A stretch of DNA of 64,000 nucleotides from the NCBI GenBank assembly GCA_951406725.2, contig OX597826.1, forward strand, positions 79,422,001-79,486,000, written 5' to 3'. Under the pieces are notes generated by a model. That model made no database searches. It had not been told where the DNA came from and worked only from the letters and a program-made list of their open reading frames with translations. Position 1 is the stretch's first letter. Every line of letters starts with the position of its first letter. Shown here piece after piece: positions 19,853 to 30,245 of this stretch. The position numbers were made by a program, and so were the translations under genes. Origin of the DNA: Octopus vulgaris (Eukaryota).

Positions 19853-20656
19853 ATGCGTATACGTGTATGTTTGCTTCGGTGAGGAACGTATGTGTGTCTG
19901 TCTTTTGTATTCGTGATTGTGACATGTGTTATATATTCTCAGCAGAATTATTCCCAGTCCTTACCCCTTATTGTTTCTCGTCCTATCGCAGAGAAACAAA
20001 TAAATACACTCACACATATATATATACACACACACACACACACAAAATTAAAAGAACCCTTTTCTGACACATTTTAAAGTTTCTTTTTTAAATACTTTGT
20101 CAAAAGAGAAAACATTTTGTTTTCTGTAATTTTGTTAAACTTCTTTCCCCGCCCGGGATCTTCTCCATATCTTCATCTATCGCCTCTTCGAAATTCGGCA
20201 AATGTAACATCATTGCTAATTGTCAGACGATCTCAGACATCTTACTTTGCAAATGGAATTTTGTTTGTTTAAATTCAAAACTGCGTATAATCTTATTTAA
20301 ATCGACAGCTTTGGACATATTTCCATATTTCTGTGCATTTGTCACATACAAGTTGACTGTGCATCAAGTTGTTATGATTTTCTTGTTATATTATACAATT
20401 GTATATGTTGGGATAGTTTTGTCTATTCTCATTGTCAGTTACTGTAACACGTATTTGGCAGACGAATTTGTTATTGTAAATTTTAGTGACTATAAAAAAG
20501 GATGGAAGTAAATATATGAAACCTAATCATGAAAAAAAAAAGAAGAAAGAAAATATCTAAATTGCTCATGTTAAGTTGTATATGTATATCGTACAATGAA
20601 TTTATGCATATTGAAATGCATAGTTATAAGCTTGGGCATACATTTGTTAATAAATA

Positions 20657-20714
<58 letters not shown>

Positions 20715-20785
20715 ATATATACACACATATATACGTATATGCGCACACATATATGTATTATCTATACACATCTATATGCCTATGG

Positions 20786-20856
<71 letters not shown>

Positions 20857-21097
20857 GATAGATAGATATTACACACATGTTTCATTGTAGAGTAGATATA
20901 GAGCATAGTTGTTATTTATATGATTGAAAAGTGGTTAGGAATGGTTTAAACACTCGAAATAATTTTCGTCAAGCAAATTTGTTCAAAAATCTCCAAATGA
21001 TTCCACTTGAAGACGAGATTTTTCAATAAGTTATTCTAAAGCTCCCTTTAGATATTAACAAGAACAAAAGAACAAGATAAACAATAACATAATAATG

Positions 21098-21130
<33 letters not shown>

Positions 21131-21813
21131 TAAATAATAATGATGATTAATCACAACAACATTAGTAGTATTAAACAAAAACTGAATAAAATATATTTGA
21201 ATTAAAACAACTTAATAGAAAAAATGAGGAACGTTAAAATATTTAAAAAAAAATGTATGAAAGAAATTGGTTTTAGATCATAGAGCAACTGTTTTTGTGT
21301 TTTTCTTCGTTTTGAAACCTCGATTTTTAAAAAAAAAAGAAGGAATAAATAATGTGAATCAATAAAAAAAAAACAAAAACAGTAACAGTAACAAACAATA
21401 TGAGAAGTATCAATAAGAGAATATTTGTCGTCTGCAATGTTCAATAGGTTTTTGAGTTAACTTGCGTGTAGGTTTTTTTTTTGTCTGTTTTCATCCCGGA
21501 ATCGGAGCTGGAGCAACAGAGTGAGGGAATCTTACTATTGTATTTATCGAAAGACACACGTGATGAACCTCGGATTGCTGTGATTGGTCAATAAATGTAC
21601 CTGAAAGCAACCGGAACTTTTGAATCTCTGCTTTGTTCTTATTCAGTGATACATTCTCTCTCTTCTTAGGATTAGCCAGAATTTCAACTGACGTCAGCCT
21701 CTCGAAAGAAAAAAACAAAACAAACTTTACAAATTAACAAAAAAAGAAATGGAAAAATGGAAGTTAGAGAAAAAGAGACAGAAAACAAGTTTTCCCTTTG
21801 TATAATAGTTAAA

Positions 21814-21850
<37 letters not shown>

Positions 21851-22310
21851 GTGGCAAATTTTAACTCCACCTCATGGTTTTTCCGATTTTTGTTTCGTAG
21901 TAGTTGCCGTTTTTTTTTTCAATCAAATATTGAGTGTTGGTAAATCCCTTTAAGGAAACAAATAAAATGTTTTCCAGATAAAAAAAAACCCAGGAAAATG
22001 AATAAAAAGTAATAGAGAGATATTCCAACAATATCACAGCAATTTAACACAAATGTTTGGTTCTGTAAGATGACTGCTGTTGCTTAAAATAGAGATTCAA
22101 TTGGTAAAAACAGCAAAAAACAAATGAGAAATAGAGAGAGAAAAGAAACGCGGAGATGTTAGCACAATATAGCGTTGTCCGTCCTATTTTTGCTATCCTT
22201 CCGCCTCCTACTTGTAGTTGGGTATTTGTTAATTGTGTTAAAAGTCAGTCATAGTTAGCTTCAGCTTTATCTCTCTCAGTATTTTTTAGAAATGTTTCTT
22301 GTTACTCGGT

Positions 22311-22478
22311 TCACTTTTGTGAATAGAACACCCAGTAGAGTGTAATAAACGTAAAAAAGCACGATGGGAATGCTACTCGAGATATAACATCGATTCGTTT
22401 AGCTTTTAGTTTAGATTTAGGTTCCGAGGTGCGAACATCAACGGGGACACCGTCGCTGGTACCGTTACTCCATGTAAT
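22311..22478 (-). CDS. Cys-loop anion channel last coding exon (M4, stop TGA)
   Basis: Pyrimidine tract + cAG acceptor, phase 0; ITWSNGTSD...AKRIDVISRVAFPSCFFTFITLYWVFYSQK*, a typical GlyR-like M4. Confidence 0.94.
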   Translation of the reverse strand: MTWSNGTSDGVPVDVRTSEPKSKLKAKRIDVISRVAFPSCFFTFITLYWVFYSQK

Positions 22479-23928
22479 CTGTTCGAAGAAAAGAAAAGAG
22501 AGAAGAAAATAGAAAAAAAGAATCAAAAACCCTCAAAAGCAAAGAAAAAAACCCGTAAAATACAATGAAAGAAACACCATAACAGAATCTCATACGAAAC
22601 TGGACTGAATTGCTACTTGGTAATTGTGCCACATCATTTAATGACAGAATTAATTTTCACAGAGCAAAAACTTATGCCGTATGATAATTGATATAATTGT
22701 ATTTGTTAATGTTGTTCATGCTAGGAGGTTACATTGAGTTATTTCCCGTGGCTAATTTTTGTAAGATTTATGCAAATTACCTTGGCCATTAGCGTGTTTT
22801 ACCATCTTTGTATAAATCCAAGTCTCCTGGCTGCTGGAGATAAGGTCGGACAATTGTTGTGTTGAACGATTTTGAGCCAGAAACACGTATCCACAATATC
22901 CTCTTAACTCCAAACAATAAAGCCTGTCCTTTTATTTAATGGCAAGTCATCTTTAGAGAGAATCCTTGAGATTGTTTCCCCTTCTCATACGGAGCTTGTC
23001 GGTTTCAGTTGCCATTTGGTAATTATGGCACATCCGTTGGCGGGGAAGATAAAGATAATTTTAATAAATCAAGTGTATATGTTGTATGGTATTTAATATA
23101 CCTGTATATGTCTCTGTGATTCAGATACATGCTGCTGGCCACACTGAATTCCCATAGCTCATTTTTATTTATATATATACATAAATACACAAAGTTATCG
23201 TAGTTATCGTAATGTTACGTGTCTATACCAAAATCTATGTTAATCCCCGTTATCAGAGAAATGAAAGAAATCTCCGTATGCTATAAGATACGGTTTTGTA
23301 AAGTCATCATTCGATCGGGCATACTCGTAGAATATAATGTAGGTGTTGTAATTCTTTGTTTCTGTGGGATCTATCTACTCCCTTTGAGTAGGGATTTAAG
23401 TTTGTTAATTCTGAAATTTGCTCAATTTTAAAAGACGTAATAAATTGCGTGCATGTATGTTTGTTTTCATAATGCGAATTGTAATTAACTTAATCCAGTG
23501 ATCTTTTATGTTATCTGCTGGAAGGAATGTTTTAAAGGACCTATATTTATAGAATTAGATGCCGTGCATGAACAAAACAATACTTGGCAGTTTTATGTAA
23601 AGTCAGAAAGCATTTCATTGTTGCAAGTCTCAACAAACACGAATTATATTTAAACGTCAAATCAGAGGTTTTTAACAAATGTTCACACTTCAGAAAGTAT
23701 CATTTAATATTTTGCAAAAGCAAATGTAGATTATATGTATATAAGATCGTAAGGTATTTGCCGACCCAAAATTCATTTGGAAACATACATACAATTTATT
23801 AAGCATTTCACTATTTGAATAAAATTCAGACGTCACAAACTGAAAAGTTTATAAATCGTTGCCTCCCTTACGCTATTTTCCATGCATACACCCAGCAAGA
23901 TATTGGCATCACTATCGTATATTCTGTA

Positions 23929-23988
<60 letters not shown>

Positions 23989-24420
23989 AGAAAGATTGAG
24001 CACTACCAATCTGATGATTGTTGCTGAAAGCAAGTTTTTGTTATATACATGAAATTCGAAATAACAGAACAGTAGGTTAACTATAACCACTCGAACAATA
24101 ACTCCACTCTCCTCCATCTTTTCATTATTTTTTTTTATTTCTCATGATGACACTCGCAACTTCCTATCGCTCTCTCTCTCCCTCTCTCTGTATATATATA
24201 TATATATATATGCATAGGCAAATACAGGCACACAAACACACGCATGCACAAACATATACGCACACATTCATATCGTAGTACATACATCAGAATGCTTTCT
24301 AAAACAGCTCTAAAAGTTGTAATTTGAAGTCATTAGACAGATTCACGTTGTGGACATCTTGTTCATTGTTGATGAAGCCGATTCTTACTCCGCTTTAGTC
24401 AGGTACAGAGACATCCCCGG

Positions 24421-24505
<85 letters not shown>

Positions 24506-24524
24506 TGAGAAAGTTGGTGTGTGA

Positions 24525-24846
24525 AAGCACGTGGTTGAATATATAGAAAATAGTAAAAAGTGAAAAAACTACAGAAGGTTTGTTTTAAAAGGTTAAAAAA
24601 TATATATTTGAGTCATTATGTCAGAAGAATGTTATAAATTTTTTTCATACAATGACAGTTTTTGAAGAAATGACCGGTTTCGCTTTCAGCTTTTCAAATT
24701 TCTTCAAAAACTATGTCATTGTATGAAAAAAATTTATAACATTCTTCTGACATAATGACTCAAATATATATTTTTTAACCTTTTAAAACAAGCCTTCTGT
24801 AGTTTTTTCACTTTTTACTATTTTCTATATATTCAACCACGTGCTT
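24525..24846. repeat. Near-perfect inverted repeat, arms ~147 bp (24525-24671 / 24698-24846), 26-nt loop
   Basis: Arms are reverse complements apart from about one substitution and a 2-nt indel; preceded by a pure (TA)n run. Confidence 0.95.
24661..24710 (-). ncRNA. Minimal type I hammerhead ribozyme motif (U3-A8 variant)
   Basis: Minus strand TTTGAAGAAAT-TTGAAAA-GCT gaa AGC-GAAA-CCGG-TC-ATTTCTTCAAA: helix I, core, helix II, palindromic helix III and UH cleavage site all correctly placed. Confidence 0.7.
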
Positions 24847-24999
24847 AAAACACCGAAACCAACTAACATCAAAGTAAGCAGTGTACCAGTACACCGTTTG
24901 AACACCGAGTACATGGGATCGATATGAGAGCGAACTCCATTCAAACTCTTGCATACAGTCGCGCTGAGTTATCAGCTCAAATATTTAAGCAGTAAATAC

Positions 25000-25237
25000 A
25001 TATTTTCTTTACTACCCACAAGGGGCTAAACACAGAGGGGACAAACAAGGACAGACAAACGGATTAAGTCGATTATATCGACCCCAGAGCGTAACTGGTA
25101 CTTAATTTATCGACCCCGAAAGGATGAAAGGCAAAGTCGACCTCGGCGGAATTTGAACTCAGAACGTAACGGCAGACGAAATACGGCTGCGCATTTCGCC
25201 CGGCGTGCTAACGTTTCTGCCAGCTCTTCGCCGCCTT
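25000..25237 (-). mobile_element. tRNA-derived SINE, family A (near full length), ~40 nt from the M1-M3 exon donor
   Basis: Close match to copies at 56355, 41803, 46224 and 60041. Confidence 0.9.
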
Positions 25238-25279
25238 TCAAATATTTAAGCTGTAAATATGTGAAAAGGAAATACTCAC

Positions 25280-25671
25280 TGATTTCGATTTGATAAAACT
25301 TCCCTTTGTTTCCTTAGAAGGTACAAGTTTTATCATAATCCGTTTTACTTCTCGTCTCGAGTAGATGCTGACCAAAGCGTACTCTAGTAATGCCGCGAAT
25401 ACGAATACCAAACACGATACTGTCCACACATCGATGGCTTTGATGTAACTTACTGGAGGAAGAGATATGGCTGTGCTCTGACGTTGCGTGATCATCGTTA
25501 GAACGGTTGTACTACCCAGTGCTATTCTGGCGGGAACAGCATCAATTGGTAACCAGAAGGATACCCAAGAAATGACAACAATCAAAGTGCTAGGGATAAA
25601 TACGTGGAGTAGGAAAAATTCAAACTTCCGATTAAGGTAAATGTCGGCTTGGATGCAGGTAAAATTATTTT
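25280..25671 (-). CDS. Cys-loop anion channel exon (end of loop C, M1, M2, M3, start of intracellular loop)
   Basis: ctctacAG acceptor, TCA|GTGAGT donor; 392 nt, phase 1 to 0; NNFTCIQADIYLNR...FIPSTLIVVISWVSFWL...PARIALGSTTVLTMITQ...LPPVSYIKAIDVW...FAALLEYALV. Confidence 0.97.
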
Positions 25672-27128
25672 CTGTAGAGAGAAGAAATAAAAGAAGAAAA
25701 GAGCGTATTTGAGTGTGTGTGTATAGGAAATAATTATATCTAAGCATGTGAGTATGTGTGGTCGTGTATGTATGTTTATATGTAGTTACATATATATTCA
25801 TAAATATAAACACATATCTATACACATTCACACTCATTAGTGTCTCAGTGTGTATGTTTATGGATGTATATATCATACGTAGCTGTATTTTATATTGTAT
25901 TAATGTTTCACTTGGCAAGTTTATGTGTATTTTTATCTTTTTATATGCAAGTGTATAGACAATTAATTATACATAATTATACATCCTGTCTGCATATATA
26001 AATATAGATATTTCATACATGTTTGTGCAGGTGTATATGCAGGGTGCGGCGAATAAACTGTCGTCTAAATCACGCAAGATTGAAAATAACACCGACATCT
26101 CATTTTAACAGATACATACAAACATTTGTGTATGTGTAAATATACATTAACTTACACATACGTGTGTATATATATACAAACACCCATTTTGCAAATTTAT
26201 AAAGATGCGAGCACATGTTCGTACAGAAAAAAAAAGAGATTATACTGACGAGTTTCATCAACCACCCATCAAGGGACATGTACCTCCTCTTTCTTCCACC
26301 GACGAGAAGAAATTACAGAAAATTCACTTTTAAATCGAACACAGACTAGAAGTTACTTGTAATGGTAAAATTAATTTGCATTCTGTACCTTCTTCGGCGG
26401 CATGATTAAATCATTAATATATGCTTTTCCTCAGGTTAGCGTGTATTAGACAATCTAAGCTAAGTTTTAAGTAGTTAAATTTGCAACATATACGAAGAGT
26501 TGTTTTTGTCTCGGTATACAAAAAATACAGGAGATTGTCGTGGTTTGTTTCATGGCATGTGGACCCCTCGTCAGTGGATAGGCACACCCTGATTTTGCTC
26601 TATCAACTAAAATAGCATTTAGCAAATAGCTATTTAGATCAGACGCGAGCCAGAGCTTAAACGCGAAAGCTAAAATGAATTTCAAACTTTGCGTTTGTTG
26701 AAGGCGTGATTAAATAATTAATAAATAAAGTTCCACAGCGAAAGGCTTAAAAACTATATTGGCTTCATCATAGACTTTCCAGTCGAGGTCCCGTTGTTCA
26801 TAATTATTAATCAACCACGTCACTGATACACGGCGTCCAAATAAACTAGTCATTACAGGCAAGTTCTAGTTTGTATTTGATTTAAATAGCGATTTATTAT
26901 AAACTTTCTCTGTGTACTAAGATATGAAGAGATTCTTGCTAAGAGCCGCATGTAATGTCATTAGAGCAAAGTTTAGTTAGTGTTTCATTTAAATAGCGAT
27001 CTCTTCTTGGGTACCAAACTGAAAAGATACTTGTTTTCCGTTAAGATATTACTCTCAAACCCCAGAGTCGTTTTGTATTAATGGTACTACTTATGTCAGG
27101 GTTACAGATACATTTGATAAACTCATAC

Positions 27129-27260
27129 CTTCAAATTCTCCAGTGCAGTCTTTATTCTGGATGTTTCCGATTTCGAACTGGGCCATTTCCATTTCCTGGT
27201 TATATGTTATAGCGTTACCCTTTTCCCAGCGGAAGACTACATTGTCTGGAGTGTAGACAA
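27129..27260 (-). CDS. Cys-loop anion channel exon (loop B to start of loop C)
   Basis: ctttcAG acceptor, G|GTATGA donor; 132 nt, phase 1 to 1; (F)VYTPDNVVFRWEKGNAITYNQEMEMAQFEIGNIQNKDCTGEFE. Confidence 0.94.
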
Positions 27261-27534
27261 CTGAAAGAACAAGAAGACATTGCAATGTGAAATAAGGTCT
27301 CCGTAATTTTACCGCAAAGATAAATTTACTAAGGAAGATTTGGTCGTCCTGGGGCTGTAGTTGGAGACACTTGGGACACTTGCCCAAGGAATAAAGCAGG
27401 ACTTCACTTGAAACTACGGGGTTGCAAAGTGAACTTTTTAAACACAATGCTATGCCTAAAAATAATGACAATATTAGTGATGATAGTGATGATGATGATG
27501 ATGATGATGTGGCTAATATTACAAGTGGACTGGA

Positions 27535-27845
27535 AGCAAAGTCGGCCTCGGCGGAATTTGAACTCAGAACATAAAAGGTGGACGAAATGCCGATATGCAT
27601 TTTTGTCTGGCGTGTTAACAGTTCTGCCAGCTCGCCACCTTAATGACGATGGTGATGATGATGATGAGGATGATGATAGTAACGACAACAATGATAATCC
27701 TTTCTACTAAAGGCACAAGGCCTGCCCGAAATTTTTGGGGAGGGGATAAGTCGATTACATCGACCCCTCCCGCCCAGTGTTTCACTGGTACTTATTTAAT
27801 CGACCCCGAAAGGAAGAAAGGCAATGTCGACCTCGACGGAATTTG
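27535..27845 (-). mobile_element. Two partial family A SINE pieces among (GAT)n/(CAA)n repeats
   Basis: gcaaagtcggcctcggcggaatttgaactcagaac at ~27536 and ctggtacttatttaatcgaccccgaaagga at ~27785. Confidence 0.8.
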
Positions 27846-28658
27846 ATCACAACAACAACAACAACAACAACAACAATAATAATAATGATGATGAGAACGA
27901 CAACGACGGCGTTGATGACGACGACGACGATGTTCTTTTTGCGTAGGCAACACATTTTGAAGAAAAGTGGTCGACAATTAATTTGTTGACAGCTTATTAT
28001 ATAGATCTTGACACATACATAAATTCATACAAACATACATACATACATACATACATACATACATACATAAATACATACATACATACACACTGATATGAAT
28101 GTATTTGTGTGTGTTATTAACTGGATATTACATATTAGTATTCTATAAGATTCATAAAAATCAGTTATAATTTATCAGTTATTTTTTGAATATCATTCGT
28201 TGCGTAGCACTGACCTTTGTGTTATAGAGGTCTCTGGCCCCGAGATTAATATGAATGTATTTAAACAGTCTCATGAGAAGCTGTCAACTATTTTAAAAAT
28301 ATTTCGATTTGATTTTGTGCAAGCGAGCCGTGACGGAACCAAAAGTTAAACATATTTTATGTAGCTATATTGTATGCGGTTATGAAAACGCCAGAGGGGT
28401 TTTATTAAAGTGGAGTCACTTCAATGTTTTTAATATGTTCGAGATGTTTTATATATTTTCAGAAGTAAAAAAAAATATGTATTACTGGTATTTCGAGAAT
28501 CAGTTGGTGCGATACAATTTCGATATTTACGAAGATATTTTCTGATATGTGGATATGAAAAGTTTAACTTTGTCAGTTTAAGTGTTTTCGTATTTGCATT
28601 TTTTAGAATTAAGATTTTCTCAAGAATGCATAAATTACTGGATGAATTTGGTTGTGTA

Positions 28659-29153
28659 CGGGGTCTGATCGAAAAGTATCAGGACTGGTGGGATAAAAAG
28701 AAAACAACACGTATCAATTTGGCATTTAATCTCCTATGAATCGAGTCCACTTCTGAAGCCATACGCTTTATCCAGCATCATTTCCATTGATGGAAACATT
28801 CCTGGGAACTCCTTTTTTGGCGATAGCGAACAACTGCCTCTTCACATTCTCTTAGATTTTCTCATTGTCTTGGAATCTTGTTCCTTTCAAGTGGGATTGG
28901 ATTTTTGGCAAGATTCTTGGCCGTAATAACCTTCAAGCCGTGTTTATTTTCATGCACACACACATGTTTTCTCTGCCATGGTCTCTGTGGTGTGGTGAGA
29001 TGACCGCACTCTACACACTAATTTCAAGCTCTGCTTCAAACAACGGGAGCAAGAGACTTTGTGTCAAGGTCAACCTGTGCCAAGCGACTTTACTCTATGC
29101 ACCTTAGCTCAGTTACCAAAGCGACATTCCCGATACTTTTTTATGAAACCTCG
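28659..29153. mobile_element. Non-autonomous mariner-type element with TIRs and TA target duplication
   Basis: ta|cggggtctgatcgaaaagtatcagga ... tcccgatacttttttatgaaacctcg|ta. Confidence 0.7.
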
Positions 29154-29330
29154 TATAATATATTGTCTCCGAACACTGTCTTTGAATTTTTAATGCTTGA
29201 AAGCCAATAAACGTTGGTTTAGAAAATTCTTTGGAATGTTATAAATGGATAATCACCACAAATGTCTAATCGTAAACTGATATGTATCGAATCTAATGTA
29301 ATCAAATCAGTTCTTATTAATATTAGCTGT

Positions 29331-29512
29331 TAAGGCAGCGAACTGGCAGAATTGTTGACACGCTGGATGAAATGCTTAGCGCTATTTCGCCAGTCGTTGC
29401 GTTCTGAGTTCAAATTCCACCGAGGTCAACTTCACCTTTCATCTTTTCGGGATCGATGTAATCGGCTATTCTCCTCCCCCAAATTTCAGGCCTTGTGGTC
29501 CCTAATAGAAAG
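29331..29512 (+). mobile_element. tRNA-derived SINE, family A, internally deleted
   Basis: aaggcagcgaactggcagaa...gttctgagttcaaattccaccgaggtcaac; opposite orientation to neighbouring copies. Confidence 0.85.
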
Positions 29513-30245
29513 GGTTAGTGTTAGTTGTGATAATGGCTGAATAAGTTTGTGATTTTCCCCATATAATTGCCATTAATTGCGCATCGATATCCCAACGATA
29601 TCCCACCAGCCGTTTACTGACGTCGCACTTATCATCTGTTCTTTTATCTTTTGTTTGTTTTAATCATTAGACTGCGGCCATGATAGAGCACCGCCAGGAA
29701 GAACTTTTAGTCAAACCAACCGATCAGCACTTATTTCTTTAAAAAGCCCGATACTTATTCTATCGATTTGTTTTGCCGAAGCGCTAGCTTACGGGGACGA
29801 AAACATACCAAATGCGCCTGATGATGACTTTTCTTCAAAAATATTTACCAATTTTATAAAACAACATTAGAGTGGTTTCGCCTTAAGAATAACCGTTTAT
29901 AAAGGACACACCAAAAAGTTTTAATTTTCTTCTCATAACGGAGTGTTTGAACAAAACCTCACCGAAAAGTTTTGAAGATATTTTACACAATAATCACTAT
30001 TAATTCGTTCAACCCCACCCAAGGCACAGTTAGCAACGGTAACCAGCGTCTAAAAGTAAAAAATTTAAGAACATAATTGTAACTAGTTATTTTAACAAAT
30101 TGCATATTACAACATAAATCTGAATTTTCACCATATTATTTGATAAATCACACGATGGCGAGACTATAAACTATAAAGTGAATATGTGATAGTCAAATAT
30201 TCTACTATCAGTAATATACATACATACATACATAAATACATACAT

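What the first reader, a model, noticed from the sequence alone, without database searches (positions are those of the whole stretch)
24525..24846. Hammerhead ribozyme core capping a ~147-bp hairpin in the channel's last intron, in sense orientation
Seen: the whole 26-nt loop of a near-perfect fold-back is a minimal hammerhead core on the transcribed strand: UUGAAAA, GCU-gaa-AGC, GAAA, CCGG, UC, with the long stem acting as helix I. Predicted cut is between 24672 and 24671. Both deviations from CUGANGA are the paired positions (C3-G8 to U3-A8), i.e. compensatory. Known: 3-8 Watson-Crick swaps can retain activity, Penelope-associated minimal hammerheads with palindromic helix III cleave as dimers, and long dsRNA is an ADAR substrate, with coleoids editing neural transcripts heavily. 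Inference: a ribozyme-capped dsRNA element ~430 nt after the pore-encoding exon could cut the intron, recruit ADAR to nearby exons, or be switched by editing (A8 to I).
Basis: partly seen in the sequence, partly recalled or inferred. Interest (0 to 1): 0.85.

Follow-up and report, generated by a model that had tools for sequence, protein, structure and literature searches.

The report
Fold-back Penelope retroelement end with hammerhead
The hairpin is the cut-off tail end of a common Penelope-like jumping gene, sitting as two head-to-head pieces in an intron of an octopus-type chloride-channel gene; its hammerhead-ribozyme motif recurs about 1,600 more times in the genome and is likely idle here, so this is most likely ordinary insertion debris, not a dedicated gene switch.

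Summary
A 147/149-nt fold-back encloses a 26-nt type-I hammerhead motif (U3-A8 core, palindromic helix III), in sense in the last coding intron of a glycine-receptor-like channel.

It is not a unique element. It is the 3' pseudo-LTR of a Penelope-like retroelement (PLE) family: 1,592 exact matches to the family hammerhead; intact copies encode RT, a CX4CXXC linker and a GIY-YIG-like domain. Head-to-head arms are this family's usual insertion (41 of 79 sampled loci), inserted in (TA)n, with one long and one short arm in 37 of 41. Here the arms joined at the 7-nt helix I microhomology, which leaves the ribozyme as the loop; one other exact junction exists. U3-A8 is fixed family-wide and already published for PLEs.

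Cleavage is predicted to need a strand-swapped dimer, which the long stem should hinder; no partner lies in the window. Hyper-editing of the stem is plausible but generic, and untested. A pile-up of arm ends at the cut site was suggestive but not significant (6 of 43; p 0.05-0.14). The scan noted the same pattern earlier in shark-type genomes.

The parts
24504..24704 (-). Direct arm: 3' end of the PLE pseudo-LTR, from helix I of the hammerhead through the ~40-nt 'tail'
   Evidence: 98.0% identical to the closest fetched family copies; the same segment follows the RT-EN ORF and precedes ORF1 in full-length copies L076 and L137
24672..24697 (-). Hammerhead core, helix II and palindromic helix III (ACCGGU); the loop of the hairpin
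   Evidence: family alignment A1; pair counts
24671..24672 (-). Predicted cleavage site, after C17 (GUC)
   Evidence: hammerhead numbering applied to the sequence; cleavage not tested
24698..24704 (-). AAGAAAT: 5' strand of helix I and 7-nt microhomology shared by the two arms (the junction)
   Evidence: intact copies have GATGT upstream of it, the window has the inverted arm; exact junction at 2 places genome-wide
24698..24846 (+). Inverted, 5'-truncated copy of the same pseudo-LTR (positions 0 to about +146 from the cut site)
24422..24503 (.). (TA)n tract at the tail end: likely target and primer
   Evidence: both arms of most family copies end in (TA)n
25280..25673 (-). Host exon encoding M1-M3 of a glycine-receptor-like Cys-loop chloride channel
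   Evidence: a contig of RNA(?) run X11 covers exactly 25280-25673
22479..25279 (-). Last coding intron of the channel gene, which holds the element
   Evidence: tblastn exon map; donor and acceptor read
22305..22478 (-). Last coding exon (M4)

Best explanation
The hairpin is a dead, 5'-truncated insertion of an endonuclease-positive Penelope-like retroelement, made of one direct and one inverted copy of the element's 3' pseudo-LTR, which were likely joined through the 7-nt self-complementarity of hammerhead helix I. Shown: family membership, the head-to-head form, the two preferred 3' end points (about +134 and +170 from the cut site, each at an internal TATATA), the (TA)n context and the junction. 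Inferred: the element's nuclease cut both strands of a TA-rich target; each DNA end primed reverse transcription at one of the two internal TATATA sites of the same RNA; both cDNAs stopped early and were end-joined at the microhomology, leaving the ribozyme core as the loop. The hammerhead serves the retroelement's RNA. In this intron it is predicted to be mostly idle: the monomer cannot form helix III, the active form is a strand-swapped dimer, the native distal helix I has been replaced by a perfect duplex, and no second motif lies in the window. The stem is likely hyper-edited like other fold-back repeats, without a selected role.
For: 2,146 candidates for the element; 1,223 exact matches of an arm 33-mer; 1,592 of the family hammerhead. 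Upstream of single-arm copies lies a PLE ORF end. Intact copy L137 has ORF1, an 811-aa ORF2 with RVT_1 (E 2.9e-7, above cut-off), CGRSNCATC linker and a weak GIY-YIG match, a hammerhead in both pLTRs and an inverted truncated copy. 41 of 79 position-sampled loci are head-to-head, 37 of 41 with one long and one short arm (p 5e-8 against 50:50). Arms of one locus differ by 1.5 changes on average against 4.4 between loci (24 pairs), so the hairpins arose separately. Junctions recur at other microhomologies (L182/L191, L170/L190). Monomer lacks helix III; the cofolded dimer is the textbook double hammerhead. Published: inverted truncated copy plus one-sided tail (PMC8557442); two internal RT start sites, both strands extended, protein-assisted hammerhead (PMC11167929); U3-A8 variant and inactive monomers (PMC4209133).
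Against: The inverted arm ends at about +146 against non-TA DNA, not at +134 or +170, so this copy is atypical. The dimer is 7.3 kcal/mol more stable than two monomers at standard state, so some trans cleavage cannot be excluded. The window copy has a third helix II pair that most copies lack. The outer junction is also present in run X5, labelled as another organism, so the insertion is not private to this assembly. GIY-YIG scores are below Pfam's cut-off. No editing, cleavage or empty-site data were obtained.
Confidence: 0.9

Rival explanations
1. Same origin, but since co-opted: the stem acts as an editing inducer that recruits ADAR to the M1-M3 exon, or the ribozyme cuts the intron and tunes channel expression.
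For: Sense orientation, 433 nt from the donor; near-perfect 147-bp duplex; intronic stem-loops can induce editing nearby in mammals (PMC5654063, abstract); octopus CNS has very many hyper-edited sites and palindromic repeats are strong targets (PMC5625713, passages); the junction is present in a second organism label.
Against: About half of the family's sampled loci have such a stem, so one in an intron is expected by chance, and sense is a coin toss. The copy is young (98% to others). No exon-intron duplex over 10 nt. The one RNA(?) contig over the exon shows 0 differences from the genome (contigs hide partial editing, so this is weak).
Confidence: 0.06
2. The inverted arm stops at the cut site because it was copied from an RNA already cleaved by the hammerhead in vivo, not because of helix I microhomology.
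For: The arm's end coincides with the cut site. Other loci have junctions exactly there: L148, where two tandem units and the inverted arm all start at the first base after C17, L152 and L153. About 8 arm ends lay at 0 to +2 in the chromosome-1 sample (read by eye).
Against: In the window the microhomology makes the two readings indistinguishable. In the genome-wide exclusion search 6 of 43 ends fell at 0/+1: p 0.05 against all 32 positions, p 0.14 against A/T positions; +9, +12 and +14 were as frequent; two of the six overlap the first sample. Most arms run through the intact motif. RNA reads ending at the cut were not found for the anole PLE (PMC11167929).
Confidence: 0.2
3. The hairpin is a non-autonomous fold-back family (MITE- or retrozyme-like) that spread as a unit.
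For: Many short hairpins of similar size.
Against: Junctions and arm lengths differ from locus to locus; arms are closer within than between loci; the exact junction occurs at 2 places, with long and short arms swapped; one hammerhead only, no tandem unit.
Confidence: 0.02
4. The palindrome is an assembly artefact.
For: Palindromes can be made by library or assembly errors (general knowledge).
Against: The arms differ at two places; an independent contig bridges the outer junction; the form matches published PLE insertions.
Confidence: 0.02

Closest known systems
Complex insertions of canonical EN+ Penelope-like elements, Neptune/Nematis type (Craig et al. 2021, PMC8557442)
   Same: C-terminal GIY-YIG-like EN after RT, CX2-5CxxC linker, pLTRs with a hammerhead, adjacent inverted 5'-truncated copy, 30-40-nt tail at one end, (TA)n targets
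   Different: Only the last ~200 nt are present here; the junction falls on helix I so the ribozyme is the loop; the inverted arm ends between the two usual end points; clade not placed by phylogeny
Minimal PLE hammerheads, including the U3-A8 variant of Schistosoma Cercyon elements and the palindromic helix III type of Drosophila (Cervera and de la Pena 2014, PMC4209133)
   Same: Type I, U3-A8 core, G10.1-C11.1, palindromic helix III, predicted dimer cleavage
   Different: Helix II is only 2 bp (3 bp in this copy) against 6-8 bp there; helix I is 7 bp; here it is extended to a 147-bp duplex by the junction
Poseidon element PAc of the green anole (Frangieh et al. 2024, PMC11167929)
   Same: Two internal RT start sites that define the tail, AT-rich targets, both target strands extended, hammerhead not needed for insertion in vitro
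   Different: There the start sites are not homologous to the target; here both end points are TATATA, matching the (TA)n target, and the two arms nearly always use different ones (37 of 41)
Editing inducer elements (Daniel et al. 2017, PMC5654063) and hyper-edited palindromic repeats (Porath et al. 2017, PMC5625713)
   Same: Long near-perfect intronic stem in a neurotransmitter-receptor pre-mRNA
   Different: No conservation, no edited site and no exon duplex shown here

Membership tests
EN+ Penelope-like elements (source family of the fragment) | Reverse transcriptase ORF linked to the repeat | tested here: met
   RVT_1 E 2.9e-7, 30.9 bits (cut-off 29.6) in the 811-aa ORF of L137; contiguous with the pLTR
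EN+ Penelope-like elements (source family of the fragment) | C-terminal GIY-YIG endonuclease with CCHH motif | tested here: inconclusive
   Pfam GIY-YIG E 0.0075 and 0.068, below cut-off; the motif YVIKCSGCHQDYVG with two later His is visible in the translation
EN+ Penelope-like elements (source family of the fragment) | Direct pseudo-LTRs flanking the ORFs, each with a hammerhead | tested here: met
   L137 and L076
EN+ Penelope-like elements (source family of the fragment) | Adjacent inverted 5'-truncated copy and a 30-40-nt tail at one end | tested here: met
   41 of 79 loci head-to-head; 37 of 41 long plus short
Neptune/Nematis clades | CX2-5CxxC linker between RT and EN; (TA)n targets | tested here: met
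   CGRSNCATC; TA tracts at arm ends
Neptune/Nematis clades | Placement by RT phylogeny | not tested
   no reference PLE sequences were fetched
Minimal type-I PLE hammerhead | Core (3-8 pair, G5, A6, G12, A13, A14), NUH cut site, G10.1-C11.1, palindromic helix III | tested here: met
   core invariant in 24 distinct copies; position 17 is C or A in nearly all
Minimal type-I PLE hammerhead | Covariation of the helices | tested here: inconclusive
   93.5% of cells paired; one two-sided change (C-G to U-A in helix II, 3 related rows); 24 of 500 shuffles as high; alignment imperfect for copies lacking one A
Minimal type-I PLE hammerhead | Self-cleavage (as dimer or protein-assisted) | not testable with these tools
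   only folding was computed
Rfam hammerhead families | Match to a covariance model | tested here: not met
   none among 55 matches at E<=10 in 20000-30000
Retrozyme or MITE-like fold-back family | Non-autonomous unit amplified whole, with fixed ends or tandem hammerheads | tested here: not met
   variable junctions, within-locus arm identity
Editing inducer element | Conserved stem next to an edited site and needed for its editing | not testable with these tools
   only contigs available; no exon-intron duplex over 10 nt

The most novel reading that the evidence does not exclude
This octopus family records the PLE mechanism in its insertions: twin priming from two internal TATATA sites of one RNA (37 of 41 pairs long plus short), and a subset of templates that begin exactly at the hammerhead cut and were re-joined there (L148, L152, L153, perhaps the window copy). 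That would be genomic evidence that an EN+ PLE hammerhead cleaves in vivo.
Probability: 0.2. Interest if true: 0.6.

Novelty: new member of a known kind. Interest (0 to 1): 0.22.

Why it matters
As a locus it matters little: it is one retroelement remnant among thousands. The family is more useful. It is young, has intact ORFs and more than a thousand mappable insertions, so a whole-genome map of arm ends could test two open points of PLE biology: how the inverted copy with a one-sided tail is made, and whether the hammerhead cleaves in vivo. Because about half of the sampled insertions are fold-backs, the family is also a likely large source of perfect dsRNA for octopus ADARs. If this hairpin did steer editing or splicing of the channel, it would be a case of retroelement co-option in a coleoid neural gene, but nothing found here supports that.

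Tried and rejected
1. Rfam scan of 20000-30000: no hammerhead family.
2. Cut-site footprint: seen in the chromosome-1 sample; a strict search gave 8 matches at 5 loci with no matched control; the wider search gave 47 matches, 4 dropped as internal deletions, and 6 of 43 at 0/+1, not significant against A/T positions. One search, a first version of that script, lacked subfamily references and was discarded. In one search, L162 (+1 by eye) was placed at -6 and L198 looks like a further internal deletion; neither changes the verdict much.
3. A cis partner for a dimer: none in the window; the 5' part of the gene outside the window was not examined.
4. Exon-intron complementarity: nothing over 10 nt.
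5. Editing, RNA ends and empty sites: only contigs were offered, swamped by repeats. Runs X2, X6 and X11 have no cover over 24865-24984, which proves nothing. The RNA(?) contig over the motif is another family copy (7 differences, 3 gaps).
6. The pattern was mistyped (0 hits) and was corrected.
7. Lunse et al. 2016 was not held.
8. Literature searches for hammerhead + Penelope-like + octopus, Neptune + cephalopod and Penelope + twin priming + microhomology found no paper on this octopus motif or on twin priming in PLEs. The library is partial, and unread supplements of PMC4209133 and PMC8557442 may list the family.

Full report
Observation. The - strand folds into a hairpin of -226.5 kcal/mol (z -36.6, 0 of 100 shuffles). 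The arms, 24525-24671 and 24698-24846, differ by one substitution and a 2-nt indel, and the loop is 26 nt. The loop reads as a type-I hammerhead: helix I AAGAAAU/AUUUCUU, core U3 U4 G5 A6 A7 A8 A9, helix II, G12 A13 A14, palindrome ACCGGU, C17, cut between 24672 and 24671. It occurs once in the window. Rfam has no hammerhead hit here. The host is a glycine-receptor-like Cys-loop channel (closest named hits are from octopods and cuttlefish). Seven exon matches lie on the - strand; the element is in the last coding intron, 433 nt from the donor.

What it is. A search of the genome gave 2,146 candidates. An arm 33-mer has 1,223 exact matches and the family hammerhead 1,592 (matches, not loci). 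Copies with a single arm continue upstream into an ORF. Full-length copies have the PLE layout: inverted truncated copy, 5' pLTR, ORF1, ORF2, 3' pLTR (L076; L137). ORF2 of L137 (811 aa) matches RVT_1 above cut-off and GIY-YIG weakly and has the linker CGRSNCATC, which PMC8557442 gives as the Neptune/Nematis mark. Many copies keep open frames of about 800 aa, so the family is young. The window copy is 98.0% identical to its nearest fetched relatives.

The fold-back is routine. I took the first 100 listed matches (chromosome 1, in order of position). They collapse to 79 loci; one match already held as L035 was left out. Of these, 41 are head-to-head within the fetched DNA. Arm 3' ends fall in two classes, +123 to +137 (65) and +160 to +170 (57), with 3 others; 37 of 41 pairs combine one of each (p 5e-8). 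Both end points are internal TATATA stretches, and arms run into (TA)n. In 24 pairs (23 loci plus the window) arms differ by 1.5 changes within a locus and 4.4 between loci; the partner arm is nearest or joint nearest in 14 of 24. So the hairpins were made one by one and did not spread as a unit (gene conversion could add to this). PMC8557442 describes the inverted copy and one-sided tail as typical of PLEs; PMC11167929 shows two internal RT start sites and extension of both target strands in vitro.

The junction. Intact copies have GATGT before AAGAAAT; the window has the inverted arm there, and AAGAAAT belongs to both arms. The exact junction occurs at 2 places in the genome; the other, L016, has its long and short arms swapped, and L015 and L019 from another subfamily show a like junction. 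Other microhomologies also give repeated junctions. Helix I is therefore a ready microhomology, and a ribozyme-capped hairpin is an expected by-product (inference).

The ribozyme. The core, including U3 and A8, is invariant in 24 distinct copies. PMC4209133 reports the U3-A8 variant in Schistosoma PLEs, no activity for a single minimal motif and low activity for dimers. Covariation is weak: one two-sided change in helix II, 24 of 500 shuffles as high. The third helix II pair of the window copy is a rare change also seen in L035. In the monomer A15.1-U16.1 has probability 0.0. Cofolding two molecules gives the double hammerhead, 7.3 kcal/mol below two monomers, with helix I between the molecules. 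That needs a second RNA and exchange of the stem, so I infer little cleavage in the nascent intron. The anole hammerhead needed its protein to cleave (PMC11167929).

Does the family show cleavage in vivo? About 8 arm ends lay at 0 to +2 in the chromosome-1 sample (by eye). In L148 two tandem units and the inverted arm start at the first base after C17; L152 and L153 also have junctions there. The genome-wide test was not significant: 47 matches, 4 dropped, 6 of 43 at 0/+1, p 0.05 against all positions and 0.14 against A/T positions; ends favour A/T positions generally (34 at 19 A/T positions, 9 at 13 G/C). This stays a lead.

Reads. Only contigs were available; 4 of 24 listed runs were laid. 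One contig of X5 (a different organism label) bridges the outer junction. One RNA(?) contig carries another family copy of the motif, and one covers the M1-M3 exon with no differences. Editing and RNA ends could not be judged.

Long stems in repeats are the main ADAR targets across animals, octopus included (PMC5625713), so editing of this stem is likely but generic. Inducer elements exist (PMC5654063), but they are described as conserved and next to edited sites; neither was shown here, and no exon-intron duplex over 10 nt was found. A8 lies in the loop. I give co-option about 6%.

Papers seen: PMC4209133 and PMC11167929, parts 1-2 of 4 of the text; PMC8557442, Introduction and passages; PMC6765202, PMC13282606 and PMC5625713, passages; PMC5654063, abstract; others only as search listings. 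Lunse et al. 2016 was not held and is known only through PMC6765202. No supplements were read; they may already list this family. Hammerhead numbering, the NUH rule and ADAR's preference for duplexes are from my own knowledge. Earlier notes of this scan on shark-type genomes reached the same reading; I saw them after forming mine.

Verdict. A real, correctly described hammerhead motif, but part of an ordinary fold-back insertion of a Penelope-like retroelement. New member of a known kind; interest 0.22.

Noticed in passing
L137 3066-3240 (G000:C6): ORF1 (no Pfam match) and the RT-EN ORF2 overlap in different frames around a T-TTT-TTA run followed by GC-rich sequence, which looks like a -1 ribosomal frameshift signal; PMC8557442 mentions such an arrangement for some PLEs. 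Pseudoknot not tested.
   Followed up: partly
L148 987-2138 (G000:C2): Tandem ~460-nt units made of the pLTR from the cut site plus the start of ORF1, each starting at the first base after C17, with an inverted arm that starts there too; fits copying of a circular or re-ligated cleaved RNA.
   Followed up: partly
L153 1400-1945 (G000:C24): Both arms start at the cut site and are preceded by the same ~130 nt of foreign sequence in inverted form, so the template was a chimera joined at or near the cut site.
   Followed up: partly
window 24847-24870: The inverted arm ends at about +146 against non-TA DNA that loosely resembles the element's tail (ACCAACT shared); microhomology priming or a later deletion, unexplained.
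   Followed up: partly
window 25004-25226: A very high-copy short repeat in the same intron (extreme depth; similar text recurs elsewhere in the window). Recalled as an octopus SINE, not tested; ARAGORN finds no tRNA.
   Followed up: no
window 36831-62822: A 26-kb intron between the first two mapped coding exons of the channel; the gene's 5' end lies outside the window.
   Followed up: no
L127 2338-2981; L033 1252-2070: A more distant RT-like stretch (about 68% DNA identity to the family) and another ORF that looks like a different Penelope-type family lie beside fetched copies.
   Followed up: no
G000, family-wide: Subfamilies differ in loop II (UGAAC, UAAAC, UACAC), in position 17 (C or A) and in loss of the A after the cut site; the UACAC/A17 form goes with the intact 811-aa ORFs.
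   Followed up: partly
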